Source of the DNA: a virus
Virus record (IMG/VR): IMGVR_UViG_3300021963_000113
Location: 3,835-67,834 of that record
DNA: 64,000 nt
Reading direction: 5' to 3' (one strand)
The notes under the pieces were generated by a model. It was not told the origin of the DNA. It worked only from the letters and a program-made list of their open reading frames with translations, and ran no database searches. The translations under genes were made by a program, and so were the position numbers. This document shows, in pieces, positions 980 through 29,828 of this stretch (the stretch's first letter is position 1; every line of letters begins with the position of its first letter).

Positions 980-3900
980 TTAAATCTCCATCAAGAACCA
1001 ACCCTGCTGCTCTCCAGCGATACTATTTCCTGCTGCATCTGTTTCCCCGACATAGATAAGACCAAAAGCAGCATTTGGAGTGTTAACAACCAATTCACCA
1101 CCTCCATAATTAGATGCCCCACCCAAACTACTACCAGTTGGACTTCCTTGTAGAGATGTGCCAAGAGGTGCTCTAATAACTAGATTGACACTAAAGTTTA
1201 GAGCTCCACCAACATCAACAACTCTAATTGTATCTCCAGTAAGAGCGTCCTGAGGAAGTAATAAAACTAAAGTAGATGAAGGTCTAATCAAGTATTGAAT
1301 ATTTGGTCTCAATTGATATTGAGTATCAGATTGGGCAGATGCTTGATTGTTTCCTTGAGCACTAATAAAGACTGTTTTTCTGCCACCATTAGCATTATAG
1401 AAGTTTTCGTGTCCGAAAGCTTGTATAGAAGCATCCTGTCTAATTCTAAATGGTTTTGAATTATTATTACCTAAATTATTAATACTTAAGTAATTAACAG
1501 CAGCAGTAGGAGTACTAGTATAAGAGCCATGTAATGTAAGTGTTGCACCAGTGGCAGCAGAAGTTAATTCTCGTCCAATTACTGTACTACCTAATTGAGC
1601 GTCAACAGAGAATCTAGTAGTAAATGGATTTTGTCCAGTTTCCGTTGATGCGGGAGTAGTTAAAGTACCAACTGTCAAGTCATCGCCAACACGTAAAGTG
1701 CCTGCAATTTTAGTATTGCCAGTAGCACCCAATACTTCAAGTGCAATATTTTGTGCTACATCTTCTCTTCCTTTATCGAAATTACCAGAAGCAAAGAAGG
1801 AATCTTTAAAGATTTTGAGATTACCACCATTATAGATGCTTGTATTTCCAGATGCGGATTCGACATAGAATTTTGGAAGAGATCCATTAGTAATTACGAA
1901 ATACTGTTTTGCTGGTGTAGAAGTAGAAGTATTACCACTCAACTCAATTGAATTATGTACAATTAAGTTTCCGCCACCAGTTGCAATAATTGGATTTCCG
2001 TCCTTATCAACATCTGGTTTAGAAGTGCTAGATGGGAATCCATAAGAATCTGCTAGATTCTGGTCATTATCAGCATCATTAAATGGTTTAGTTGTATCAT
2101 AACCAATTACAACGTCACCAGAAATTTGTGTGTTACCTGTAGTTGATATTGTTTCAAATACTTTTAATGCATCTTTTTCAAATGATTCATTACCAAAATC
2201 TCCATTATTAATGACAAACTTCTGAGCATCTGCAGGATTTACCTGTGTAATTCTCACATATTCGCCACCTTCATTCAAACTTACCTTATTAAGTCTAAAC
2301 AAATCATTAATTTTGATATTTGCAGAGAATTCAGCAACATTAATAGCATTGCTAACGGCCGTTATTGGATTTGGATCTATATACGATGCATTTTGTTGCT
2401 CAACTAATCTGTAAATTCTCTGTCCATCTGGGTGAGATGATGCAGCTGTTCCTCTTTGTGCTCTTATAACTTCAACGTAGAATGGTTGTGGGCTATTAGG
2501 CACAAATGTGGATGGGAAATTAACTGTCTGAATAATTTCTTCACCAATTAAATACAATTGATTAATACCAATACCCGTTGGATTACTAATAGGAAGATTC
2601 CATGTTTGAATTCCATTAAAAATTCTATTCTTGAAAGAATCGTTGCCCCAGGGAACATCACCAGTTGTATCAATCACAGTGGAGAATAATCTCATTCTAG
2701 CATTACCTGCATCAGTAGTGCCAGATCTAAGTGCAATAGTGATATTATTATCAGAACTATTTTTTAATGTAAATCCTGTGGAATCTCTACTTGCAACATA
2801 ATAAGTTACATTAGTAGAAACGCCAGTTAGATTACCAACATCAAAAAATACTACCGCATCGTTTTGACTAAACCAATAATTATCAGAAAGTAATTTATTA
2901 TTTACTACTGTATTGATTCTAACAGTGCCATCAAAATTAGGAACAACAGAGAAATAATCGATATTCAAATTATCAAGACTACCAACCGACTGAGTAAGTC
3001 CTATATTTGTAATTACAGTACCAGTTGCTGCAGCCTGTGGATAATTAATACCAGGATTAGTATAAGTAAATGAATTTGGTCCAGTTACAGTAATTGCTAC
3101 TTGTCCGACCGTATTAAATGAATCGACACTACTTACAATTTGAGCAGTAGAAGAAATATTATGTGGGGAAACAGTGGTTACAGTCGCAACGCCATTAGAT
3201 CTTGTAAGAGTTGCAATTCTAATAGTGCCAAAGATATTTCTATTAATACCAAGATTGGTGTTTTTCAATCCACCATTTTGAGTAACATCAGATTCAAAGA
3301 ATGAAGAACCTAATACTTTCAATCCATTTCTGATTGTAGTTGTGCCAGCAACACCACCAAGAGTTAATGTACCAACACTTAAACCAATATTAAGTTTAGT
3401 AATTCCAGATGGGAATAGAGTGAATTCATCATTCAATGAAGTGGTATTAATTTCACCACCATTAATAGTTAATACACCATCAACTATAGTCTGATAATTT
3501 TTAATGTTGAAGAAACTGGACTGTCTGTTTAAGAATGCTCCACCAAAAGTAATATTTGATGAATATGCAGTATCATTATTTTCAACCGTGCCAATATCAA
3601 TTATAGAATTAGTAGCATTAGTATGAATATTGAGAGTTGATGCACCAGTTACCGCAGTGCCAATATTTACAGTTTGCTGGGTTGTTGCGAGATTTCCAAC
3701 ATTAACTGTTGTTGCATATCCAGCAAGAGTAAGATTAGTAGTGCTAGTCTGATTGGCAATTGTAAAGACACCCGAAGTAGTGCGAATATCTCCACCATTT
3801 ACATCAATATCAGATTCAAATCTGAAATCACCAGTGATTCTACCAGTGCCAGCAACCACAAGTGCTCTATCCAATGCACCATCAGCAATATTAATACCAA

Positions 3901-6900: not shown

Positions 6901-9900
6901 CAAGTACAAAGAATTCTTCTCCACTTGGGAAATTAAATTGTACAGCATTTTGTCTATTAATAGCATCAGATACTGATGTATAAATCGAGAATTGATTATT
7001 CTTGGTATATGTTGCTGGTCTACCAACATAGTAGTTTCTATTTGTTTCTAGTCTACCACCAGATGTTTTTGCAGGTAGAGTAGCGAGAGCAGCAGCATCA
7101 ACGATTCCATTGGTTAGATTTTCTTCTAGTGGATAGAAGAATACTTGCTGAACCTGGACACCAGCATATGCAGTATCAAATACGTTATTGGTTGAAGTTT
7201 CAAATACTCTGGAACTTGTTAATTTAGCAGTATAGCGGTGCAAATCGTAATTAACATTTGTCAAATATTGATGAACTTCAATCTGAACATCTGGGTCAAT
7301 TCCACTAGTCTCAGAAGAATAAATGTAGTTACCAGCAGTAGCATTTTCGATGCTAGTTGCAAGCATAAATGACTGAGTATTATTAAATTGTGCTGTTGCT
7401 CCACCAGCAGAATAATCATATGGTGCAGTAATCTTACCAGGAGCAATTACATAATAATTTTTGTTGCTTTCAAATCCTTTTGGTAATCTTACGAGACGCT
7501 TATCAACATCAACTGGTTTACCAGTAGAAGGATCTTTTCTTGGAACAGCAACAAGTCTTACTGGTGTGCCTGTTTCTAGATTGTGTGGATTGCTACCAGA
7601 TACTTTAAATAGAGTTGCTCTCTGTGCAAACGAAGTTGTGTTTACAAGTTGAGAAATGAGAGGCTCGGCATCAACACCATTCTTAATAATGTTTTCAATT
7701 ACTCTCATCTTCTCGATGATAGCATCCTTAGTACCAGCACACTTGTTAGCACTTGTGTCTACAATAATACTATTGTCTCTTTCAGGCTTTGTTCTTTCAG
7801 TATATTCATCTGTACCAAAAGTTTTTGGAGGAAGTGGAGATAGATTTTGAAGAGCGCCGAGAAGAATATCAAACTCAGTGGCAATGGTATAAGCAACATC
7901 TGCACAACGAGGAACTCCAGCAGTTGTAGTATCAATAGTAGGATCAATTTGATAATCTAAAGTTGTATTTGGGCGCTTAACATACAATGGATCGGAGTCT
8001 GTGCCATCACCAGTTCTCCAGTTACGCATCGCAAGAATAGCAAGATCTCTTGCCTTCTTATATGCATATACACTAATATCCAACTCACCAATAAGTGATG
8101 CTGCCCCAGCATTATATTTCAGAGCAGGATACTGATAAGAACCATTTTGTAGTTTTGTGAGAAGAATATTGAATAGTGAATTAATTTCGTTTCTTACATC
8201 AAGATAGGCATTAGGATTATCATTTGGAATGTTTGGACCAGGAACGCCTAATTCTGCTGGGCCAACAGGAATACCAAAATCTCTTACATTGAGTTGATTT
8301 GTTACTGCCTTGAAGCAAAGGTCTCTAGCAGCTTGGAATGCAGTTACTGACTGAGCAATTTCGCCAGCAAGTCCATTGTTTAATAGAGTATTGCCAGTGC
8401 TATCAAAATATGACTTGGTTGCAGTAATAATATTATAGTTTCCACCTAGAGCAAGGTCTTCTGCGATAGAATCAACAATGAATCCGATGTCACGCTTACA
8501 CTTAGCTTGGAATTCTGGTGCGCTACCATAATTAATTGGAGGTAATGCTGGATTTTGTGTAGTGCCAGTTACTAAATCACCTTGACGAATTCTAGCAAAA
8601 ATAATATTAGAAAGTGTATCTAATGTTGCTTGGACATTAGAGCAAGATTGACTATCATCATTGTTAGCAGTTACACCAGGAGTGCCAAATACGCTTAATC
8701 CAGATTGAGGAGTGCCAGGTGCTGGATCTCCAGTTAGAGAAAGATCTTTAACAGTTAGTTGGTTAGTAATTGCCTTCTTCATTTCGGCAATTGCCGCAGT
8801 GTAGGCAAAGATAGATTTTTGCTCTTCACCTTGAAGACCATTCTGAATCCATGCCTGCTCTACTGTAGAAACAGTTACTACAACATCATCAACTACATTA
8901 ACACCACCAATAGAAGATCCAGGAATAGTTACTGTATTACCAGCAACATACTTATAACCAGCAGCGTTAATAGTAACAGATGTAATTGCACCAGTAGAGC
9001 TTCTGGTTACATTGAAGGTAGCTCCCACACCGCTACCATTTGTCGTAGTTGAAACGCCAGTGTAAACTCTATTCTGTCTATTGGAAAGAGTAGTGCCATT
9101 GCTACGGGTAAAGGTTAAGATTTTGCCATTAACTTTATCTTCAATAAAATATTGACGAATAAAATCAATAGAATATGAGTTTCCTAGTGTAGTTAAATCA
9201 GTAGAAACTGCATCAATAAAATATCCGATATCACGCTTACACTTGTTTTCTAAATCTGCTGGAGCAGGTGTTGGAAGGCCGCTAGCAAGTAGAGCATTAT
9301 AAGCATTATTAATAATTTCTGCTCTATTTTGCTGAATTAGACGATATGAATCCTTATATCTTGAATAAACATTTGTCTGAGTATCTCCACCATCTGTAAA
9401 TCCAGGTCCACCATAATAGAAATCTGGATATTCGATAGCAAGTTTTGCAGCTGCTTTGTCTACAATTTCTCTTCTATTTGAAAGAATAAGATTCTTGGAA
9501 TAAGCATAACGAGAAGGAGCTCCAACATATGCTTCTGTAGCAGTTACAATACCAGAGTTGCCAGTTGTTTTAAGGTCTTGAATTACACCATCAAGCACTA
9601 AACCAATATCACGCTTACACTTAGTATCGTTTGGCACTGTAACTGTTGGGTATTGTGCCTTAGCAAGATTGAGTGCTTCTTCTGCAATAAAATCTTTGTT
9701 GCGATTGATTAAAGTGCCAGCATCAAATGCTCTACCAGATGAGGTAGCAAACTTACCTTGCTCTAATTCAAAGTTGAGTGTAACACCACCAACACCAATA
9801 GAGTTTGCAGTAATGGTAATGAGTGCTTGCACCTCCTCAGTATCATTTCTGTTACCAAGTTTAAATTGAGTTGTGTTTACAATTTCTCTAATATAGGTGC

Positions 9901-21743: not shown

Positions 21744-24620
21744 TTACTCTATTAAATCTGCGTATAAAAAGTCAGCAAAAGTTGCTGCCATTGACCTTCC
21801 TTGTGGGACATTGCCACCAAAACCACCAACACTAAATGATTTACTAGATGCTGATGTAGATGCTGGCGGAGTGATAACTGCAGCTGCTGTTGCTGTTGGT
21901 TTAGATTGACTTGGTGATGGACCCACTCTCTGTGCAGCAGCAGCAGGTGGAGCTGGTTTTGGTGGTTTTGGTTTTAATTTTGCTGCCTCTTGTTTATTTA
22001 ACCTAGCAGCAAGTGACTTTGCTAATGCTTCTTGCTTTGATTTTCTTTCTGCTGTTGCTCCTTTCTTATTCCAAACCTGCCACCATGGGTTTCCACCAAC
22101 TGCTCTGTCGCTCACTCCCATGTTAACCCACTTGCCATTCACTTTCTGCACACCCAATCTTGAGCGTTGTGCTGATGCTCTTTGTGCTCTCAATCTAGCA
22201 GCATGTGCATGTCTGGAATCCATAGGTCCACCAGATGCATAACCTTTTAGTGGTGGTAGCCCCATCGTTCTTCTCATTTCTGGGTCAGTTACATCTTTAT
22301 ATCTTGCGTTATATCCTAACCCACTATTAGTATTTCTTTGATTGTTTACTAATTTACCCCAAGAGAATGGATTCCACCATGCTCCACCATCTTCTGCTTG
22401 TTGCTTTGGTTTATTCTTATTCCAATTAAATATAGGACTTACATCACCAGTTGGTAAATTTGTTTGTGCTGGATCATTAGTTGGATTTGGCGCTGGTTGA
22501 GCAGATGGTGTAGGTGGAGGATTAACTGGTTGACCATTATTTCTTTGTGTTGGTAAAGCAGGTGGTTGTGCTCCAGCTCTTCTCACATAATCAATTTTAT
22601 CTAATGCTATAGTGCCTCTAGTTACCTGGCCGCCTTGATTTCCACCAATGATTTCTACTGCCCCATTCTTAGGACTACCAGCAGCAAACATAACATGAGA
22701 CCTAGATCCACCACCGTAGTCACCAACAATAACATCTCCATATTGTATATTCTTTTTGTCTACAGGTGCTCCCCAGTTTTCAAAACTATCAGCTGCTGGA
22801 GAATCTGATCCTTTAATTCCCTGTCTTTCAAGTTGAGCATTTACATATGCAGCACACCATGGACCTTTTGTTGGATCTATAATACCTCTAGCACCACTTT
22901 GCATAATTTCTTCTCTCATCTGAGATGCATCTTTCCCAATGTCTGCTTCCAAATCACCCTTCAAACTTTCTGGTGTGCCGCCTGGTGGATTATCACCCCC
23001 ATCTCCATCACCTTTCTTCTTGTTAGCATCTCCACCACCACCTATTTTCATTCCATCAAAAAGATTTTTCATAAAATCTTTAGCAGCTTTGTTTGTATCA
23101 ACTACACCAAACTTTCCTTTGCCAATAGATGATGTAAATGTAAGATTAGATATACCAAATTCTTTTGCTGCTTTTCTAATGTCTTGCTTGACCATATCAC
23201 CTGCAGTGCCACTCTCTGTCTTGCCGAGCATACCAGAAGCAACACCAAGAATCATTGCACCAACAGTATCGACTGCAGTTTCTCCAGCTGGTGTATCTTT
23301 AGTATCACCAAACATTTTTTTACCAATGTTTCTGTTTAAAGGAATAACAGAATCACCAGGATTTAAATTTGTCTTAGTTGGATTATCTACTAGTCCTCCT
23401 TCTGCCATTGGAGAAACAGGAGATGGTGGTACTGCTGATGGGACTATACCACCTTCAGATGCCTGAGTTCTATCGATATTGGATAAAACATTATTATATT
23501 TTTCTCTCTCTCCAAAAATTCTTTCATTGAGCATTCTAGCTCTATCTGCCTGCGGACCTTCTCCTCTGACATCATAAAGATTTTTTTTGTTTGGGTCTGT
23601 TTGGAATAGATTGTAAATAGAAGATCCCAAATCTCCCAAAGAAGTGAAGAGATTATCATCTGGATTTAATACTTCTTTAGTTTGATTATATAAATCAAAC
23701 ACCATCAATGGTGCAGCTAATTTACCTAATACTCCACCCATTCCTTTAGGCATTCCAGGCATCTTAAATCCTTTAGGCATTCCAGGCATCTTAAATCCAC
23801 CTGAAGATGTGGCACCACCACTAGTTGTAACCTTTGGTCCAGTGCCAGGCATTCTAGGACCAGGAGGTTTGCCACCCGCTCCTTGAGTTACTGGAGATTT
23901 TTTAAATGGATTTAATTTTTGTAACCACTTATCAGGGATGAAGTTACTTGCTAAATCCCCAAGGCCAAGTAAATTTAACATCCAATCGAAAGGTCCACCG
24001 CCTCCGCTATCATTACCTTCCCCACCTTCCTTTCCTTTCTGAGATTCTCCCAGTGGAGATCTAGTGCTCGAAGTATCCTGTGTCTTCTCTAATTGCTTTT
24101 CTGCTCTAGCATATTTTGCTTCTTCTAATGCTTTTCTTCTTAAGTCAGTTTGAGAATCTAAAGTTTCTTTTATAGCTGTGAGTGTGCCTGCAGAGCTAGT
24201 TGTTGCTGCTAAATTCTGACCAATGCCATCGTTGATTCCACCCAGTTTAGCAACCATTACACCAGTATCTTTTAAGATAGCAGTGAATCCACCTGCGATA
24301 AACTCTTTTAGTTTAGCAGACCCGTTGGCACCGTCTCCTTCTGTCGGTGGTGTTACTGGTTTATCTTTTGGTTTATTCCAACTAAATTGCTTTGCCCAAT
24401 TAGACTTTGCTTTCTTAGACTTGATTGGGTTGAATTGATTTGCTAAAGAAGACTTAAACAAAGACCCCTTCTTAGGAGTTTCGCCTGCTGCTTGAGCTTT
24501 CTCTCTTTCTTCCTTAGCATTTTCAGCAGCATCACGAATTTTTGCACCAATAGTCTTGGCGATATTTAATACACTAGGACCAGTGCCAGCTTCTGTTGGT
24601 GTAGTGGTAAATGCTGCCAT
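21744..24620 (-). CDS. Tape-measure/hub-like virion protein with a CHAP/NlpC-P60-like (TIGR02594-type) peptidase domain
   Basis: PWCAAYVN..A.SF.NWG..GDVIV..SHV..IGGNQG motif; coiled-coil and low-complexity stretches. Confidence 0.7.
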   Translation of the reverse strand: MAAFTTTPTEAGTGPSVLNIAKTIGAKIRDAAENAKEEREKAQAAGETPKKGSLFKSSLANQFNPIKSKKAKSNWAKQFSWNKPKDKPVTPPTEGDGANGSAKLKEFIAGGFTAILKDTGVMVAKLGGINDGIGQNLAATTSSAGTLTAIKETLDSQTDLRRKALEEAKYARAEKQLEKTQDTSSTRSPLGESQKGKEGGEGNDSGGGGPFDWMLNLLGLGDLASNFIPDKWLQKLNPFKKSPVTQGAGGKPPGPRMPGTGPKVTTSGGATSSGGFKMPGMPKGFKMPGMPKGMGGVLGKLAAPLMVFDLYNQTKEVLNPDDNLFTSLGDLGSSIYNLFQTDPNKKNLYDVRGEGPQADRARMLNERIFGEREKYNNVLSNIDRTQASEGGIVPSAVPPSPVSPMAEGGLVDNPTKTNLNPGDSVIPLNRNIGKKMFGDTKDTPAGETAVDTVGAMILGVASGMLGKTESGTAGDMVKQDIRKAAKEFGISNLTFTSSIGKGKFGVVDTNKAAKDFMKNLFDGMKIGGGGDANKKKGDGDGGDNPPGGTPESLKGDLEADIGKDASQMREEIMQSGARGIIDPTKGPWCAAYVNAQLERQGIKGSDSPAADSFENWGAPVDKKNIQYGDVIVGDYGGGSRSHVMFAAGSPKNGAVEIIGGNQGGQVTRGTIALDKIDYVRRAGAQPPALPTQRNNGQPVNPPPTPSAQPAPNPTNDPAQTNLPTGDVSPIFNWNKNKPKQQAEDGGAWWNPFSWGKLVNNQRNTNSGLGYNARYKDVTDPEMRRTMGLPPLKGYASGGPMDSRHAHAARLRAQRASAQRSRLGVQKVNGKWVNMGVSDRAVGGNPWWQVWNKKGATAERKSKQEALAKSLAARLNKQEAAKLKPKPPKPAPPAAAAQRVGPSPSQSKPTATAAAVITPPASTSASSKSFSVGGFGGNVPQGRSMAATFADFLYADLIE
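23742..23798. repeat. Perfect 27-bp tandem duplication encoding GFKMPGMPK twice
   Basis: TCCTTTAGGCATTCCAGGCATCTTAAA occurs twice in tandem. Confidence 0.9.
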
Positions 24621-24643
24621 TAGTTAAAATCTCCCTGTGATAT

Positions 24644-27600
24644 TTAGGTTATAGATGTATAATGAGATAGTCTTGCCTTTTCTCTAGCAGCAACCAAAGG
24701 ATTTGCGGGGACATGAATATACTTAGTGTCACCTTTAATATAAACAGGCACCTGTTGTATGACAGGTGTGATAGTTTGTATCATAGCAACAGATGTACCA
24801 CTAACAGTGTCTTTAGGAATTGGTATAGGGTTTACTTGTCCCTCTGGAATTTCTGGAAGTGATGCTCCCTTAACAGGAGTGCCACCAAGTAGTCTTAAAA
24901 TCTCAGCACCAGATTCATCCTCTGCTCTATAAATTCTTTTAGGTTTAAATCCTTCTCCATATACGGGAGTCCTACCAGTTTTTGGTGGTGCTAATAAGTT
25001 ATCAATAAAATTAACAAATCCAGCAACTTCTACACCAGCTTGTCTTCCTATTTGCTCGTATCTATTAAATGCTTTTGCTGGATCTTTATAAACATTATAT
25101 TCATTATTTTCTATAGGAGCAATCACCATTTTATTTCCGATGTGGAATAACAATTCTCTACCATGTCCTATGTAAGGTTGACCACCTGTATATTGTGGAG
25201 GAATATTGAAACCAGATGGAGGACCAGAAATTTCAAATAATCCACGCACTTGATCAGAAAAATTGTTAGTGATGTTTTGCACTGCACCTTTAGATGCTCT
25301 TCTAGTAGAAGCACCTTTAGCTTTATCAATTGCTTTTTGTAATTTTTCTCTATTCTCAAATTTCAAACCTCTCCATTCTGATATAAAATTATCAACATTT
25401 GCTCCTGTTTTTAGTCTATATTTAATTAAAGCAATACCTAACTTATCTTGAGTTGATGCATTAAATTTATCATTAGGAGAAACACCAGTTTCTCCATAAC
25501 TTTTACGATTAATCAATCCATCCATGGTGCTGCCAATAATTTGGTATCTACCAGCTGCATGAATTGGTGGGTCTTTATCTTTTTGATGTTGCATAATCTC
25601 TGCAACAGTCATATCAGTCAGTTTTCTTTTTATTGGTCCTTGATCTGAAGGTCCACTGTAACCAATAACAGAATAACCATTATTAGATCCTCCTTCATTG
25701 TAAGCAATATAACCACCAGCAGAAGTACTTTCTTTGCCAGCAATCATATCTAATAATTCTTTATAGTCACCTGCATCAGGACTAGTTGTGTTATCATCAT
25801 CATCTCCACCATCACCACCGTCTTCACCATCACCACCTATATTAATTCCAAACATCTTGAAGAAGTTTGCAAAGAATTTGGATAATTCTTTTGCTCCTTG
25901 CTCTTCAGTCATTGCAGCGGAGTCTAACTCAGCAGCAAATGCTCCTTGATTTAAACCAAATAAAGTTGCTAATCCACCCAACAGGGGAGAAAACATCTTA
26001 GCAATTACACCACTGAAGGGACCAGCAGCTGCAACTATACTGGCAAGAGCACCAGAAATTTGAGCACCAATTACTTTGAATGGCATTTCCATTACATTGG
26101 CAAATGGTTGCACCTTCTTCATTAAGTCGCCAGCAGCACCAAGACCAGTGGCAAGAATATTGCTACCCGTGCCTTGCATTACACCACCTTCAGCAAGCTT
26201 CTTTGGAGCACTCCTAACAAGTATTTCTGGACCAGCTTCACCTATCAATGCTGGAACGGTATTTCTAACAGACGCAGCACCTTCAGAAAACTTCATTCTC
26301 CTACCAAACCTACCAAAAGAAGGCATTTTAAACCTGTTTCTCTTTGGCACATCACCTGTTATTTTAGGACCACCTCTTCTGGTAGTAGACCTCTGACCAC
26401 CTCCCTTTATTTTCTTTGCAATATCTCTTGTATCATCTGCTGCCATTAACAAATCAAACCAATCTAATCCACCCTCTGATTTTCCAAGTAAACCACTTAA
26501 ATCAATAGATGGAATATTAATATCACCTCCCGCTGCTTGCTGAGCAACTGCTTCATCAGATCCAGAATCAATTTCAACATCAACCATCTTGGATATAGAT
26601 GTTAGTATTCCCTCTAATAAATCTGAATTCCTTTCACTGGCATTAACAAGTTGCTCTAGAGTTTGTGTCTGTTTTGTTATTTGTTTATTAATTGCGCCCA
26701 ATGCAATTGATACTTTTTTAAATCCCGTTGCTAAATCACGTATCTCGTTTGCTTTCTTTTTCTTCTTGGGGTCTGAATCTCCATAGTCAAACTGGTCTCC
26801 AAATCCTGCTTGAGATTTGGATTGTTTAGATGGCATACTCTCAATGAATGCCCCAAATGTAGTGTCAAATGCTCTGCCACCAAACTGATAACCTATAGAC
26901 TTCTTGATAAAATATCCAGGCTCTAATACTTCTTGAGGTATATCAGCACCATTAGACTGTGCTTCTAATGCTCTTTCTTTCTGCTCTTTGGCATCTTGAA
27001 ATGCAGTCTTTACTTTTTTTCCTATCCATGAACCAAATGCTAACACAGATGGTCCTTCTCCTGGTGCTTTACTTACACCACCAGAAAATAATGTTTTCCC
27101 AACAAATGATCCTGTCTTTTTTAGACCACCACCAAACATTCTACCAAGACGTTTTCTTCTACTTGGTGGTGTTGGTGGCTCATTACCACCAGAAGGTGCC
27201 TTTGGTTTCTTTTTCTTTTTAACTGTATTCTTAGGTCTCTTAAGTTTTCTTCTAGAAGGTTTTTTCTTTTCCTTTTTTTTCTCAGTCTTAGGAACAGTTT
27301 CACTTCCCTCCCAAGGATCAGCAGGTCTCTGATACTCATTAGGAGGTGGCGAAATCTTCTCTTGAATATCTTCTAATATATCTATCTTGTCTTCAAGGAT
27401 TTCAGAAACTTCTGCTTTAGTTTCTGCTTCTTGAATCTCTTCTTGTGCTTCTACTAATACTTCCGAAGTTTGCTCAACAATTTTTTCACTTACTGCTTCC
27501 TCAAATGGGTTGTTGAGATACGCTTCTACTAACCACTCTTGATATAATCGTTGTCTCTCCATCCACTGTATAGGAGTGCCACTTTCCTGATCCAAAGAGG

Positions 27601-27808
27601 GATAACCTCTTGGATCTTTTTTTATATTAGCAATTAACCTATCGGCATCTTCATCAGATAGATTCACATATGAAGTATAGCTTTCATCTCCCTGTCTTCT
27701 ACCAGTTAATTTTGATTTTAAAATCAACCACAACCTAGAGTTAGGATTAATCCTACTCCAAGGCATCTTTGGGTGTAATACTCCTTCTGGCGGTTGTGGT
27801 AGATTCAT
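24644..27808 (-). CDS. Tape-measure/hub-like virion protein with a lambda-lysozyme (GH104)-like muramidase domain
   Basis: LLDMIAGKES..Y..AAGRYQII..T..F..QDKL motif; IGEAGPE motif. Confidence 0.7.
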   Translation of the reverse strand: MNLPQPPEGVLHPKMPWSRINPNSRLWLILKSKLTGRRQGDESYTSYVNLSDEDADRLIANIKKDPRGYPSLDQESGTPIQWMERQRLYQEWLVEAYLNNPFEEAVSEKIVEQTSEVLVEAQEEIQEAETKAEVSEILEDKIDILEDIQEKISPPPNEYQRPADPWEGSETVPKTEKKKEKKKPSRRKLKRPKNTVKKKKKPKAPSGGNEPPTPPSRRKRLGRMFGGGLKKTGSFVGKTLFSGGVSKAPGEGPSVLAFGSWIGKKVKTAFQDAKEQKERALEAQSNGADIPQEVLEPGYFIKKSIGYQFGGRAFDTTFGAFIESMPSKQSKSQAGFGDQFDYGDSDPKKKKKANEIRDLATGFKKVSIALGAINKQITKQTQTLEQLVNASERNSDLLEGILTSISKMVDVEIDSGSDEAVAQQAAGGDINIPSIDLSGLLGKSEGGLDWFDLLMAADDTRDIAKKIKGGGQRSTTRRGGPKITGDVPKRNRFKMPSFGRFGRRMKFSEGAASVRNTVPALIGEAGPEILVRSAPKKLAEGGVMQGTGSNILATGLGAAGDLMKKVQPFANVMEMPFKVIGAQISGALASIVAAAGPFSGVIAKMFSPLLGGLATLFGLNQGAFAAELDSAAMTEEQGAKELSKFFANFFKMFGINIGGDGEDGGDGGDDDDNTTSPDAGDYKELLDMIAGKESTSAGGYIAYNEGGSNNGYSVIGYSGPSDQGPIKRKLTDMTVAEIMQHQKDKDPPIHAAGRYQIIGSTMDGLINRKSYGETGVSPNDKFNASTQDKLGIALIKYRLKTGANVDNFISEWRGLKFENREKLQKAIDKAKGASTRRASKGAVQNITNNFSDQVRGLFEISGPPSGFNIPPQYTGGQPYIGHGRELLFHIGNKMVIAPIENNEYNVYKDPAKAFNRYEQIGRQAGVEVAGFVNFIDNLLAPPKTGRTPVYGEGFKPKRIYRAEDESGAEILRLLGGTPVKGASLPEIPEGQVNPIPIPKDTVSGTSVAMIQTITPVIQQVPVYIKGDTKYIHVPANPLVAAREKARLSHYTSIT

Positions 27809-27924
27809 TGTTGCTGACTATTCTTTTGCTCTTCTAGATAATTACTAAGCATAGCAACGAAAACTTCTCTCTCCCAAGGTATCATATTTTCTAATTCAGT
27901 TAATGAAAACTTATGGTGATACAT
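27805..27924 (-). CDS. gp51: Baseplate hub assembly protein gp51-like, probably made as a frameshift extension of gp26
   Basis: MYHHKFSLTELENMIPWEREVFVAML. The frame stays open upstream to the gp26 slippery site. Confidence 0.8.
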   Translation of the reverse strand: MYHHKFSLTELENMIPWEREVFVAMLSNYLEEQKNSQQQ

Positions 27925-27974
27925 TAAGTTGAAATTAGTTTGATAAAAGTTAGCAAGGTTTTCATGGAAGAGAC

Positions 27975-28691
27975 TTATGCGAAAAAATTTGTAAGACCCT
28001 CAATAGTATATTCAGACTCAACATTTGTCTTTGGATTCTTCAACGTAAATGTATGTGATACCTTAGGCATCGTAGCAAAGAAGTTTTGAATTGCTTCAAA
28101 CTGTTTACTTGTCAGACCTTCTAAGTAATCAGAAATATCTTTCTTGGAAAGACTAGACCCTTCCCATACTTCATCACCATCGAAAATTTGCTCTACACAA
28201 TCAATGATAACATCAAAAACTTCTTGCGTTGACTGCTCTTTCTGAAGAATTTGGGAAGTGATAAACTGCTCCATACCAGGATACTTCATAATCAAACCAG
28301 CACTATCAGTAAGCATTACCTTTTTGTCATGACCTTCTGGTTTGATGACCTCAACCTTTTCTAGATTTAATTTGTAGGGAATAGATGTTTCGCCATCATC
28401 CTTAGCAGTGAAAATCATCTCAACAATTTCACCCACAGATTTAGATCTGATTCTCAAGAAAACATATTCTAAATCAAACATCGGCAACTCATCAACTTTA
28501 ATACCTCTAGTGGTAATACAAGACTTCAAGGTTTCAATGATAGCATTACGAATCTCTTTGTCATCTTGACTCTCTGTTGCCATCAGAAGAATTTTTTCTT
28601 CCTTAACTAAAAATGGTCTATATTTAATTGTCTTGCCAGATGAGGGAAGTTGCAACTCATATGTTGGCACTGGGGGCTTTGGTAAAGACAT
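27975..28691 (-). CDS. gp26: Baseplate hub assembly chaperone
   Basis: MSLPK..PTYEL.LPSSGK.IKYRPFLVKEEKILL, LRIRSKSVGE, and C-terminal EGLTNFF. Confidence 0.92.
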   Translation of the reverse strand: MSLPKPPVPTYELQLPSSGKTIKYRPFLVKEEKILLMATESQDDKEIRNAIIETLKSCITTRGIKVDELPMFDLEYVFLRIRSKSVGEIVEMIFTAKDDGETSIPYKLNLEKVEVIKPEGHDKKVMLTDSAGLIMKYPGMEQFITSQILQKEQSTQEVFDVIIDCVEQIFDGDEVWEGSSLSKKDISDYLEGLTSKQFEAIQNFFATMPKVSHTFTLKNPKTNVESEYTIEGLTNFFA

Positions 28692-28721
28692 AATTTAACT
28701 CCTATTATAATATTATATATT

Positions 28722-29360
28722 TCAGTTAACTTGCCTTGAAATATTATTTCCCTGCCAAGACCAATTCCTATAATAAAAACTAGCAGTAACTTTCAAGAGT
28801 TGAGAAGAACCATAAGAAACTGGGGTGCTTTGAATTGTATATGGCCAAACTTCGTTGAAAGTATAAGTGCCAGCAGTTCTTCCTAAAGTATCTCCTTTAC
28901 TTCTTTCTGCTTTTCTTATAGTCATAGTACGACACATATATTCTTTGGGGTAATTCAATCTTGTAATGTTGTATCTAGTTGGACCACCCTCACCCTCTTC
29001 AAAAATTGCTCTCATCCATCCATTTAAAAATTTCAAAGGTAGTAAATTAGCATCACAAGTCCACCCCAAAGTTATATCTTGGTATGACTTAGTATGTGCA
29101 TAATTTACTTGACCTTCACCAAGATATTTTCCTGTAGTTTGTCCAGTATTTGCCATCATTCCTGGTAAAGATGCTTCTTCACACAATAAAGTTAGTAATG
29201 TTTCTGCGTCACGATCTCTATTAAATCCTGCTTCTTTGATTCGATCTTCTGCAGCCGAACCAAAAGCACCAAACTTTACCTCATAAGTATTTGAAAAAGC
29301 AACTCCACCAGAGCTCGATATTCTCTTTAAGAATTCGTTGATGCCTATATTTTCTGCCAT
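28722..29360 (-). CDS. Tail tube-fold protein (gp54/gp19-like)
   Basis: CEEASLPG, W...I, and Y.F..VWP.....PVSYG....KVTASF.Y motifs; synteny. Confidence 0.7.
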   Translation of the reverse strand: MAENIGINEFLKRISSSGGVAFSNTYEVKFGAFGSAAEDRIKEAGFNRDRDAETLLTLLCEEASLPGMMANTGQTTGKYLGEGQVNYAHTKSYQDITLGWTCDANLLPLKFLNGWMRAIFEEGEGGPTRYNITRLNYPKEYMCRTMTIRKAERSKGDTLGRTAGTYTFNEVWPYTIQSTPVSYGSSQLLKVTASFYYRNWSWQGNNISRQVN

Positions 29361-29396
29361 CTAAATAGATACTGAGGATAATATATATTATTTATG
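29360..29396. promoter_or_regulatory. Pair of crossed late promoters between divergent genes
   Basis: TCTAAATA on + (29360-29367) and CATAAATA on - (29389-29396); each overlaps the start codon of the opposite gene. Confidence 0.6.
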
Positions 29397-29828
29397 GCAT
29401 ACTCTGGGAAGTATAGACCTGAAAATCCACAGAAGTACAAAGGGAATCCGACTAACATAATCTATCGGTCTCTTTGGGAAAGAAAGTTTATGGTATTCTG
29501 TGATAGAAATCCCAGTGTCTTGCAATGGGGAAGTGAAGAATGCGTAATACCGTATCGCTCACCTATTGATGGTAGGGTGCATCGTTACTATGTTGATTTC
29601 TATATCAAAATACAAACAAAGACTGGTGAGATAAAGAAATACCTAATAGAAATTAAACCTAAAAAACAAACGATACCACCAGACCCACAGAAAAAACAAA
29701 CAAAAATTTATAAAGATAAAGTATTATCTTACTACAAAAACATGGCGAAGTGGGAAGCAGCTAAAGAATGGTGTGAAGATAGACGCATGGAGTTTCTAAT
29801 ACTGACAGAAGATCACTTAGGAGTCTAA
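29394..29828 (+). CDS. gp4: Head completion nuclease
   Basis: YSGKYRP.NP.KYKG, YRSLWE, WGSEE, RYYVDF, EIKP and N.AKW.AA motifs. Confidence 0.95.
   Translation: MAYSGKYRPENPQKYKGNPTNIIYRSLWERKFMVFCDRNPSVLQWGSEECVIPYRSPIDGRVHRYYVDFYIKIQTKTGEIKKYLIEIKPKKQTIPPDPQKKQTKIYKDKVLSYYKNMAKWEAAKEWCEDRRMEFLILTEDHLGV

What the first reader, a model, noticed from the sequence alone, without database searches (positions are those of the whole stretch)
27805..27990. Probable programmed -1 frameshift fusing gp26 to gp51, like lambda G/GT
Seen: gp26 ends AAT TTT TTC GCA TAA, which contains the X XXY YYZ heptamer T TTT TTC (27987-27981). The -1 frame runs 60 codons (FFRISLFHENLANFYQTNFNLMYHHKFSLTELENMIPWERE..) and stops overlapping the start of the tape-measure-like gene. 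The gp51-like sequence appears to begin well before its first Met, which has no clear RBS. Known: tail assembly chaperone genes upstream of tape measure genes use such frameshifts in many long-tailed phages, but T4-like gp26 and gp51 are normally annotated as separate genes. Predicted products are 238 and 295 aa.
Basis: partly seen in the sequence, partly recalled or inferred. Interest (0 to 1): 0.7.

Follow-up and report, generated by a model that had tools for sequence, protein, structure and literature searches.

The report
Frameshift in cyanophage tail-chaperone gene
One tail-assembly gene of this uncultured T4-like cyanophage very probably makes a short and a long protein because some ribosomes slip back one base on a strictly conserved run of T's; the device is real, but a 2022 paper appears to have described it for T4-like phages, so this is one more example and a gap in annotation.

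Summary
The gp26-like gene (28691..27975, minus strand, 238 aa, Pfam PF12322) ends AAT TTT TTC GCA TAA. The heptamer T TTT TTC lies at 27987..27981. The -1 frame then runs 58 codons to a TGA that overlaps the ATG of the next gene.

The extension matches the 'gp51' family from its second residue (E 1.4e-23). Its first Met is residue 20 and has no ribosome-binding site. All 77 distinct related sequences carry an in-frame TTTTTTN, and only 1 of 77 has a start codon upstream of it in the -1 frame.

T4 gp51 is a gp26 paralog that carries the same extension in frame. T4 has two PF12322 genes. Nine other complete T4-like genomes have one, and eight of those carry the heptamer.

The N-terminal 90 residues of the model resemble the HK97 tail assembly chaperone (Z 7.5).

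My best reading is a lambda G/GT-type -1 ribosomal frameshift giving 238-aa and 295-aa products. RNA polymerase slippage on the T run is not excluded.

Two papers cite Vladimirov, Gautam and Davidson (Virology 2022), which I could not read, for this chaperone pair and its poly-T signal in T4-like phages. This scan has also noted the same device on hundreds of other genomes. It is a new member of a known kind.

The parts
27975..28691 (-). gp26-like gene, the short chaperone form (TAC-N), 238 aa. Stop TAA at 27977-27975. AGGAG lies 8 nt before the ATG.
   Evidence: ORF. PF12322 T4_baseplate E 2.2e-69, 233.9 bits against a cut-off of 24.5. phrog_150 'baseplate hub' E 3.9e-73. AlphaFold2 model pLDDT 86.9, pTM 0.81. 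RBS.
27981..27987 (-). Slippery heptamer T TTT TTC in X XXY YYZ phase (0-frame codons AAT TTT TTC)
   Evidence: An in-frame TTTTTTN is present in 77 of 77 distinct relatives (71 C, 3 T, 3 A). The third base of the preceding codon is T in 77 of 77 across Asn, Asp, Ser, Ala and Gly.
27805..27981 (-). -1 frame extension: 58 codons plus TGA. This is the 'gp51'-like C-terminal domain of the long form (TAC-NC, 295 aa, made of residues 1-237 of gp26 plus these 58).
   Evidence: Translation. phrog_634 'baseplate hub assembly catalyst' E 1.4e-23, extension 2-58 on profile 58-114/121. phrog_150 positions 237-278/282, E 1e-4. BLASTP to T4 gp51 residues 207-237, E 2e-4. AlphaFold2 model pLDDT 82.6 with helices 9-22, 27-31 and 35-57.
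27922..27924 (-). First ATG of the -1 frame (extension residue 20). This is the start gene callers would use for a separate 39-aa 'gp51'.
   Evidence: No SD-like core upstream in the window. Across relatives, 1 of 58 such ATGs has one, against 53 of 76 gp26 starts.
27997..28001 (-). GAGGG, a Shine-Dalgarno-like run 9 nt upstream of the heptamer. It is a possible 5' stimulator and is not shown to act.
   Evidence: GGAG, GAGG or AGGA ends 6-14 nt upstream in 47 of 77 relatives. The signal is confounded by the conserved Glu-Gly codons.
24644..27808 (-). Downstream 1054-aa gene whose ATG overlaps the extension's TGA (ATGA). It is a large tail or hub protein with a lysozyme- or transglycosylase-like part, and a tape-measure candidate only.
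   Evidence: phrog_11440 (function unknown) and phrog_1200 'endolysin' E 2.7e-14. No Pfam or NCBIfam tape-measure hit. The Atlas gives leads to SLT and lysozyme clusters at 0.80-0.85 only.
28722..29360 (-). Upstream 212-aa tail-tube-family gene (gp54-like position)
   Evidence: PF23849 Phage_TTP_2 E 3.9e-36. phrog_45 'tail tube'. A gene in this position was found in 73 of 76 related loci.

Best explanation
The gp26-like gene is the tail (baseplate-hub) assembly chaperone gene of this T4-like cyanophage, and it encodes two proteins.

Most ribosomes read AAT TTT TTC GCA TAA and release the 238-aa short form. A minority slip back one base while two tRNA-Phe sit on UUU UUC within U UUU UUC. They re-pair with UUU UUU, continue with CGC, and add a 58-residue three-helix domain. 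This gives a 295-aa long form that ends where the next gene starts.

The pair corresponds to phage T4's two separate paralogous genes: 26 (short) and 51 (long, with the extension in frame). It works like lambda G/GT.

Shown here: the sequence anatomy, its conservation, the homologies and the predicted fold.

Inferred: that the slip occurs, that ribosomes rather than RNA polymerase cause it, that the long form is the minor product, and that both forms act in hub and tail-tube assembly.
For: 1. The heptamer is conserved at nucleotide level. It is in frame in 77 of 77 distinct relatives at 39-97% gp26 identity. The preceding codon ends in T in 77 of 77 although it encodes five different residues. 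T-ending codons make up 41-80% of those residues' codons elsewhere in the same genes. Treated as independent, the product is 1e-11.8, which is overstated because the sequences are related.

2. The 0-frame stop moves (0, 3 or 24 nt after the heptamer in 4, 60 and 13 sequences) while the heptamer stays put.

3. The -1 frame is coding from the slip onward. Nucleotide diversity at its codon positions 1/2/3 is 0.321/0.266/0.559 over codons 1-19, which lie before the usual first Met. Over 40 codons it is 0.276/0.185/0.526. The same stretch holds at least 3 stops in the 0 frame and at least 2 in the +1 frame (76 sequences, L058 dropped).

4. Independent initiation cannot make the conserved start of the domain. 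Only 1 of 77 sequences has ATG, GTG or TTG upstream of the slip in the -1 frame. The conserved Met20 has an SD-like core in 1 of 58. Predicted helix 1 (residues 9-22) lies mostly before Met20.

5. The join is colinear with natural in-frame long forms. On phrog_150, gp26 residues 1-237 cover profile 5-232 and extension residues 5-47 cover 237-278. T4 gp51 matches PF12322 over residues 1-201 and phrog_634 over 147-246, and aligns with the extension.

6. Gene counts fit. There is one PF12322 gene in S-RSM4, S-SM2, S-RIM32, KVP40, phiM7, pf16, PX29, DLP_6 and PhiSH19, and two in T4. The first eight carry NNT TTT TTY followed by the extension.

7. T4 is a natural control. T4 gene 26 keeps the Phe-Phe motif but codes it GAG TTC TTT, with no heptamer.

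8. Fold. Model residues 1-91 align to the HK97 tail assembly chaperone 2ob9_B (Z 7.5, 85 residues, rank 2 of 48,161 chains).
Against: - There is no protein, ribosome-profiling or usable RNA evidence. The one RNA run found held only short pieces of relatives.
- The window has no downstream stimulatory structure: -2.3 kcal/mol, z -0.27, no RNAalifold consensus, and no Rfam match.
- A run of six T's could also be a site of RNA polymerase slippage, which would give the same protein.
- Part of the heptamer's conservation follows from the conserved Phe-Phe motif and AT-rich codon usage.
- The C at the last position is also the first base of a conserved Arg codon in the -1 frame.
- In 14 of 77 relatives, and in KVP40, a start codon lies within 4 codons after the slip. 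A nearly full-length separate peptide is conceivable there.
- Within this window alone the coincidence of heptamer and open -1 frame is not beyond chance.
- The fold match at Z 7.5 is in the range the tool calls common for models without true relatives. Foldseek gave no hit at E <= 0.001.
Confidence: 0.75

Rival explanations
1. Transcriptional slippage. RNA polymerase adds one extra U while copying the T run, so a minority of mRNAs carry the extension in frame. The protein products are the same as with a ribosomal slip.
For: The conserved element is a homopolymer run of 6 T's in 74 of 77 relatives and 8 in 3. The window has no downstream hairpin of the kind that often helps ribosomal slips. 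The title of Vladimirov et al. [quoted passage not shown] PRFect reads that phrase as meaning separate genes.
Against: From recall, six T's is short for efficient bacterial RNA polymerase slippage. The run is always in X XXY YYZ phase, with its first T supplied by the wobble base of a variable codon, in 77 of 77. The run is capped by C in 71 of 77 although TTT makes up 79% of Phe codons elsewhere. A longer run would be expected if length were selected, though this point is confounded by the Arg codon. The Adele paper cites the 2022 work for poly-T '-1 frameshift signals (slippery sequences)'.
Confidence: 0.13
2. There are two separate genes, as annotated in databases. A small gp51 peptide of 39 aa here starts at its own ATG, and no fusion is made.
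For: All 10 single-gene phage records opened show no joined product, and nine of them annotate a separate small ORF (in PhiSH19 the stretch is unannotated). The best 150 of 2110 matches to the extension profile are separately called proteins of 46-203 aa. The best 120 gp26 relatives are all 237-240 aa.
Against: Homology and purifying selection begin 19 codons before the Met. The Met has no RBS: 1 of 58. Called starts scatter over profile positions 1-20. Only 1 of 77 sequences has a start upstream of the conserved region. This reading gives no reason for the invariance of the heptamer.
Confidence: 0.07
3. Chance. The heptamer merely encodes Phe-Phe, and the open -1 frame is a relic with no function.
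For: Within the window alone, about 1.3 ORFs would be expected to show both features.
Against: 77 of 77 relatives and five distant phage genera keep both features. The -1 frame shows a coding pattern. The extension matches a protein family at E 1.4e-23.
Confidence: 0.02

Closest known systems
[quoted passage not shown] Source: Vladimirov, Gautam and Davidson, Virology 2022;566:9-15, seen only as a title in reference lists and through citing sentences in PMC10885494 and PMC12846349.
   Same: Same protein family: PF12322 for the window's gene, T4 gp26 and T4 gp51. The same C-terminal extension is found in T4 gp51. [quoted passage not shown]
   Different: T4 uses two diverged paralogs on opposite strands (BLASTP 20% identity over 161 aligned positions, E 2e-6) and has no heptamer in gene 26. 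Here one gene plus a slip does both jobs. I could not read the primary paper, so I cannot say whether cyanophages and this exact heptamer are treated in it.
Lambda gpG/gpGT and the conserved -1 frameshift of tail assembly genes in long-tailed phages. Sources: Levin, Hendrix, Casjens 1993 and Xu, Hendrix, Duda 2004, both seen as titles in reference lists. The mechanism is recalled.
   Same: [quoted passage not shown]
   Different: No detectable sequence similarity. The short form here is 238 aa with an added domain after the chaperone-like first 90 residues. The heptamer is U UUU UUC and sits one codon before the stop. The downstream gene is not shown to be the tape measure.
HK97 tail assembly chaperone, PDB 2ob9
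   Same: Model residues 1-91 superpose on 85 of its 104 residues, Z 7.5, rmsd 4.0 A, rank 2 of 48,161 chains. It is also the highest-probability Foldseek row among those listed: prob 0.54, E 1.0.
   Different: 8% identity. Z is below the level the tool calls safe. Residues 92-238 of the model have no counterpart in it.
E. coli dnaX -1 frameshift (A AAA AAG with an upstream Shine-Dalgarno-like element and a downstream hairpin); recalled, not from a call
   Same: A possible SD-like GAGGG 9 nt upstream of the heptamer.
   Different: No downstream hairpin in this window. The SD-like run coincides with conserved Glu-Gly codons, so its role is untested.

Membership tests
Pfam PF12322 T4_baseplate (T4 gp26/gp51 family) | Whole-protein score above the curated cut-off | tested here: met
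   233.9 bits against a cut-off of 24.5, E 2.2e-69, residues 9-238 on profile 2-219/219. T4 gp26 scores 215.6 bits and T4 gp51 scores 177.5 bits on the same model.
T4 gp51-type long form | C-terminal extension of about 50 residues homologous to the C-terminus of T4 gp51, directly behind the gp26-like domain | tested here: met
   phrog_634 E 1.4e-23. phrog_150 profile positions 237-278 follow on from gp26's 5-232. BLASTP to T4 gp51 residues 207-237, E 2e-4. The join needs the -1 shift.
G/GT-type tail assembly chaperone | Slippery X XXY YYZ heptamer near the 3' end, with the -1 frame open to the end of the long form, conserved among relatives | tested here: met
   77 of 77 distinct relatives and five distant phages. 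PhiSH19 has the -1 ORF but no canonical heptamer.
G/GT-type tail assembly chaperone | Two proteins are actually made, with the long one as the minor product | not testable with these tools
   The only RNA run found covered short pieces of relatives, held as contigs. No proteomic data are at hand.
G/GT-type tail assembly chaperone | Gene lies immediately upstream of the tape measure gene | tested here: inconclusive
   The next gene (1054 aa) overlaps by ATGA. It matches only a family of unknown function and an endolysin-like family, and no tape-measure model. T4 gp29 belongs to another PHROG.
G/GT-type tail assembly chaperone | Chaperone fold of the shared N-terminal part | tested here: met
   2ob9_B (HK97 tail assembly chaperone) Z 7.5. 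The top three chains score Z 7.2-7.6 and the next scores 4.9, out of 48,161. Caveats: Z under 8 can be a common arrangement by the tool's own note, and Foldseek found nothing at E <= 0.001. That 3fgx and 3klu are also chaperone relatives is recalled, not from a call.
G/GT-type tail assembly chaperone | Required for tail assembly and absent from the virion | not testable with these tools
   [quoted passage not shown] 2010, PMC3004832, passages read).

The most novel reading that the evidence does not exclude
In this lineage the slip would run without any downstream RNA structure. It would be driven by U UUU UUC, an upstream Shine-Dalgarno-like GAGGG 9 nt before it, and the 0-frame stop one codon after it. 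The single-gene frameshift would then be the ancestral state of the whole T4-like assemblage. T4's genes 26 and 51 would be a derived duplication in which the long copy fixed the extension in frame and the short copy lost the heptamer. If the unread 2022 paper does not cover Kyanoviridae, this would also be the first account for cyanophages, whose records (378 Synechococcus, 61 'Cyanophage' and 24 Prochlorococcus among the 528 that match the extension) were annotated as two genes in every case I opened.
Probability: 0.25. Interest if true: 0.45.

Novelty: new member of a known kind. Interest (0 to 1): 0.3.

Why it matters
It puts T4-like cyanophages under the rule that long-tailed phages make a short and a long tail assembly chaperone from one locus. 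It also explains what the puzzling 40-60-residue 'gp51' of marine T4-like phages is: the tail end of a 295-aa protein, not a gene of its own.

In practice, the 'baseplate hub' and 'baseplate hub assembly catalyst' entries should be joined with a ribosomal-slippage annotation. The extension matches 528 phage records, and all 10 single-gene records I opened lack such a join.

It also gives a clean natural series for studying how a frameshift is replaced by gene duplication: single gene with heptamer, T4 with two genes, and Ackermannviridae without a canonical heptamer. The principle itself appears to be in print since 2022.

Tried and rejected
- RNA evidence. One metatranscriptome run (coded X1) held 5% of the sampled words. 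When laid on the window it gave 7 contig pieces of 33-47 bases at 90-95% likeness. None covered the heptamer, so it says nothing.
- Downstream stimulatory structure in the window: none (MFE -2.3 kcal/mol, z -0.27). RNAalifold over 77 sequences gave no consensus. Rfam gave 0 matches at E <= 1 in 27600-28200.
- Promoter and terminator scans of 27300-29600: 8 promoter-like sites against 7.4 expected and 1 terminator-like site against 1.1 expected. The T4 late-promoter motif TATAAATA occurs 4 times in the window against 5.6 expected, and none is near the locus.
- Tape-measure identity of the 1054-aa gene: no family support. The Atlas gave leads under 0.9 only.
- Solved structures by sequence: nothing at E below 0.85.
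- Fused forms among close relatives: none in the best 120 gp26 hits, which are all 237-240 aa. None of at least 230 aa in the best 150 extension hits.
- Tail tube gene gp19 (PF06841), the analogue of lambda gpV: not found in this 35%-complete record.
No result exists.
- Literature. Searches found no open paper describing a gp26-gp51 frameshift. led, through PRFect, to the 2022 Virology paper, which is not held.
Full report
**What is there**

All features below are on the minus strand. A 238-aa ORF (28691..27975) ends AAT TTT TTC GCA TAA. The heptamer T TTT TTC occupies 27987..27981 in X XXY YYZ phase.

Reading from 27981 in the -1 frame gives 58 codons and then a TGA at 27807-27805. That TGA overlaps the ATG (27808) of a 1054-aa gene. 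Upstream of the heptamer the -1 frame is open for only six codons.

The first ATG of the -1 frame is extension residue 20 (27924-27922). It has no Shine-Dalgarno-like core in front of it. The gp26 start, by contrast, has AGGAG 8 nt upstream.

The predicted products are 238 aa and 237+58 = 295 aa.

**What the parts are**

- The 238-aa protein belongs to Pfam PF12322 'T4_baseplate' (E 2.2e-69) and phrog_150 'baseplate hub'.
- The 58-residue -1 product matches phrog_634 'baseplate hub assembly catalyst', the small 'gp51' of marine T4-like phages. The match runs from extension residue 2 to 58 (E 1.4e-23).
- The extension also matches positions 237-278 of the 282-position phrog_150 profile. The gp26 part covers positions 5-232 of that same profile.
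- The two pieces joined by a -1 shift are therefore colinear, without a gap, with the long members of that family.

The window is part of a 67.8-kb IMG/VR virus record estimated 35% complete. Its nearest named relatives are Synechococcus and Prochlorococcus myoviruses.

The gene order on the minus strand is:
1. tube-family protein (212 aa)
2. gp26 plus extension
3. 1054-aa protein with a lysozyme-like part
4. 958-aa protein with a CHAP domain
5. 458-aa tail protein
6. 1004-aa gp5-like hub/lysozyme protein

Genes resembling gp4, gp2 and gp48 run divergently.

**Is it more than chance?**

Not within the window alone. Of 54 ORFs of at least 100 aa, 14 have at least 50 open -1 codons beyond their stop, mostly because the next gene overlaps. 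Five have an in-frame XXXYYYZ in the last 15 codons. About 1.3 ORFs would be expected to have both, and one does.

The comparative evidence decides the question. I took the best 80 of 593 IMG/VR relatives, found with the gp26 protein alone (39-97% identity). I added three cyanophage records (S-RSM4, S-SM2, S-RIM32) and the window. One locus (L045) ran off its contig. Of the remaining 83 sequences, 77 are distinct over 500 nt around the site.

Results across the 77 distinct sequences (unless stated):

| Feature | Result |
|---|---|
| In-frame TTTTTTN at the 3' end | 77 of 77 (71 C, 3 T, 3 A) |
| Codon before it | AAT 26, GAT 26, AGT 12, TCT 9, GCT 3, GGT 1 |
| That codon ends in T | 77 of 77, across five amino acids |
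| 0-frame stop after the heptamer | 0 nt in 4, 3 nt in 60, 24 nt in 13 |
| Extension length | 57-68 residues in 75 of 76 complete cases, 41 in one |
| Canonical start upstream of the slip in the -1 frame | 1 of 77 |

T-ending codons are 41-80% of those five residues' codons elsewhere in the same genes. Downstream start codons sit at scattered positions, from 1 to 48 codons after the slip.

The -1 frame shows the diversity pattern of a coding frame already in the 19 codons before the usual Met: 0.321/0.266/0.559 at codon positions 1/2/3. The other two frames hold at least 3 and at least 2 stops there (76 sequences, L058 dropped). The conserved Met20 has an SD-like core in 1 of 58 cases, against 53 of 76 for gp26 starts.

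**Wider distribution and the T4 comparison**

The same arrangement occurs in five distant T4-like phages. Each has NNT TTT TTY a few codons before the stop, followed by a -1 extension carrying the conserved motifs:
- Vibrio phage KVP40
- Sinorhizobium phage phiM7
- Pseudomonas phage pf16
- Aeromonas phage PX29
- Stenotrophomonas phage DLP_6

Each of these five, each of the three cyanophages, and Salmonella phage PhiSH19 has exactly one PF12322 gene. T4 has two.

T4 gp26 (208 aa) and gp51 (249 aa) both match PF12322. In addition, gp51 matches the small-gp51 family over residues 147-246, and its residues 207-237 align with the window's extension.

T4 gene 26 keeps the C-terminal Gly-Leu-x-x-Phe-Phe motif but encodes it GAG TTC TTT, with no slippery run. 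This is a single natural control. It suggests the heptamer is not forced by the protein sequence.

**Fold**

An AlphaFold2 model of the 238-aa protein, built from a 38-sequence alignment, has pLDDT 86.9 and pTM 0.81.

- Foldseek against the PDB gave nothing at E <= 0.001. The HK97 tail assembly chaperone 2ob9_A was rank 4 with the highest probability among the rows listed (0.54).
- The exhaustive aligner put 3fgx_B (Z 7.6), 2ob9_B (HK97 tail assembly chaperone, Z 7.5, 85 residues, model 1-91) and 3klu_A (Z 7.2) on top of 48,161 chains. The next chain scored 4.9.
- By the tool's own note, Z under 8 can be a common arrangement. This is supporting evidence, not proof.
- Against predicted viral structures, the model matches 'baseplate hub subunit / assembly chaperone' proteins of many myoviruses: 69 matches at E <= 0.001.

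The extension alone, modelled from a 41-sequence alignment, gives a small three-helix domain with pLDDT 82.6. Helix 1 (residues 9-22) lies mostly before Met20.

**Mechanism**

The best-supported reading is a -1 programmed ribosomal frameshift. Two tRNA-Phe on UUU UUC re-pair with UUU UUU, and the next codon read is CGC (Arg, conserved in 71 of 76).

Stimulators are unclear for this window:
- There is no downstream hairpin (-2.3 kcal/mol, z -0.27). Some cyanophage relatives have a 9-bp hairpin starting 7 nt after the heptamer (z -3 to -4.8).
- A GAGGG lies 9 nt upstream. Similar cores occur in 47 of 77 relatives, but they coincide with conserved Glu-Gly codons.
- The 0-frame stop one codon downstream (60 of 77) may also contribute. 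This is inference.

RNA polymerase slippage on the T run would give the same protein and is not excluded. Three observations speak against it, all indirect:
- the invariant phase
- the short run (6 T's in 74 of 77)
- the capping C in 71 of 77, although TTT is 79% of Phe codons elsewhere

By analogy with lambda G/GT (recalled), the short form would coat the tape-measure or hub protein, and the extension of the rare long form would recruit tube-family proteins. None of this is tested. The major tube gene is not in this fragment, and the complex-prediction job could not be run (see Tried and rejected).

**Prior knowledge**

Six open-library searches found no paper describing a gp26-gp51 frameshift:
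- gp26, gp51, frameshift
- tail assembly chaperone with gp51, gp26 and bacteriophage T4
- cyanophage, frameshift, baseplate hub
- 'baseplate hub assembly catalyst', frameshift
- TAC-NC, TAC-N
- gp26, gp51, tail assembly chaperone, from 2021 on

A further search led to PRFect (PMC10885494, passages read). [quoted passage not shown] It cites Vladimirov, Gautam and Davidson, Virology 2022.

A 2025 paper on Pseudomonas phage Adele (PMC12846349, section 3.8.3 read) cites the same work. [quoted passage not shown]

The primary paper is not held, so I saw only its title. Its supplements and text may bear directly on how much of the present result is already in print.

Leiman et al. [quoted passage not shown]

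All 10 single-gene phage records I opened lack a joined product. Nine annotate two separate genes, and in PhiSH19 the extension ORF carries no annotation. The KVP40 record itself notes the similarity of its small ORF to the C-terminus of T4 gp51.

**Earlier notes of this scan**

The same device has been noted on hundreds of other windows: 299 notes for one word query. Some of those notes say no paper reports it. Others name the 2022 paper. My own literature check agrees with the latter.

**Verdict**

This is a real and strongly conserved frameshift site in the tail/hub assembly chaperone gene of a T4-like cyanophage. It is a new member of a known kind, of modest interest, and is mainly an annotation correction plus a clean comparative series.

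Noticed in passing
L086 (Salmonella phage PhiSH19, NC_019530) 3286-3471: This Ackermannviridae phage has one PF12322 gene ending GAG ATT TTC ATT TAA, with no canonical X XXY YYZ. An unannotated -1 ORF nevertheless follows and carries the extension-like motif (Met-Pro-Trp). The stretch 3311-3816 has no annotated gene. It may be a non-canonical slip site or another route to the long form.
   Followed up: partly
L001 3191-3225 (S-RSM4) and IMG/VR loci L016-L030, same relative position: A subset of cyanophage relatives has a 9-bp hairpin (CUCUUCC...GGAAGGG type) starting 7 nt after the heptamer (MFE -12 to -16 kcal/mol, z -3 to -4.8). The window and its nearest relatives (L004-L015) lack it. The stimulator therefore seems to be lineage-specific.
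   Followed up: partly
L084 (T4, NC_000866) 7803-7830, minus strand: T4 gene 26 ends Gly-Leu-Lys-Glu-Phe-Phe-Glu-Leu-Leu, with Phe-Phe coded TTC TTT after GAG. The protein motif is kept and the slippery run is lost in the one phage examined that has a separate long-form gene.
   Followed up: yes
window 27984-27990, minus strand: A second in-frame heptamer, A AAT TTT, overlaps the main one. It occurs in only some relatives, so it is probably incidental.
   Followed up: partly
window 21744-27808, minus strand: Two very large adjacent proteins follow the chaperone gene: a 1054-aa protein with a lysozyme- or transglycosylase-like part and a 958-aa protein with a CHAP domain. Neither matches a tape-measure family. 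Which one measures the tail in this phage group is open.
   Followed up: partly
proteins P0122-P0271: Gene callers start the small 'gp51' ORF at scattered points of the domain (profile positions 1 to 20) and give lengths of 46-203 aa. This is what one expects when there is no true start codon.
   Followed up: no
L094 1207-1374 (KVP40 record note): The KVP40 annotation already remarks that its 55-aa ORF resembles a 40-residue stretch at the C-terminus of T4 gp51. The link was seen at annotation time, but without the frameshift.
   Followed up: no
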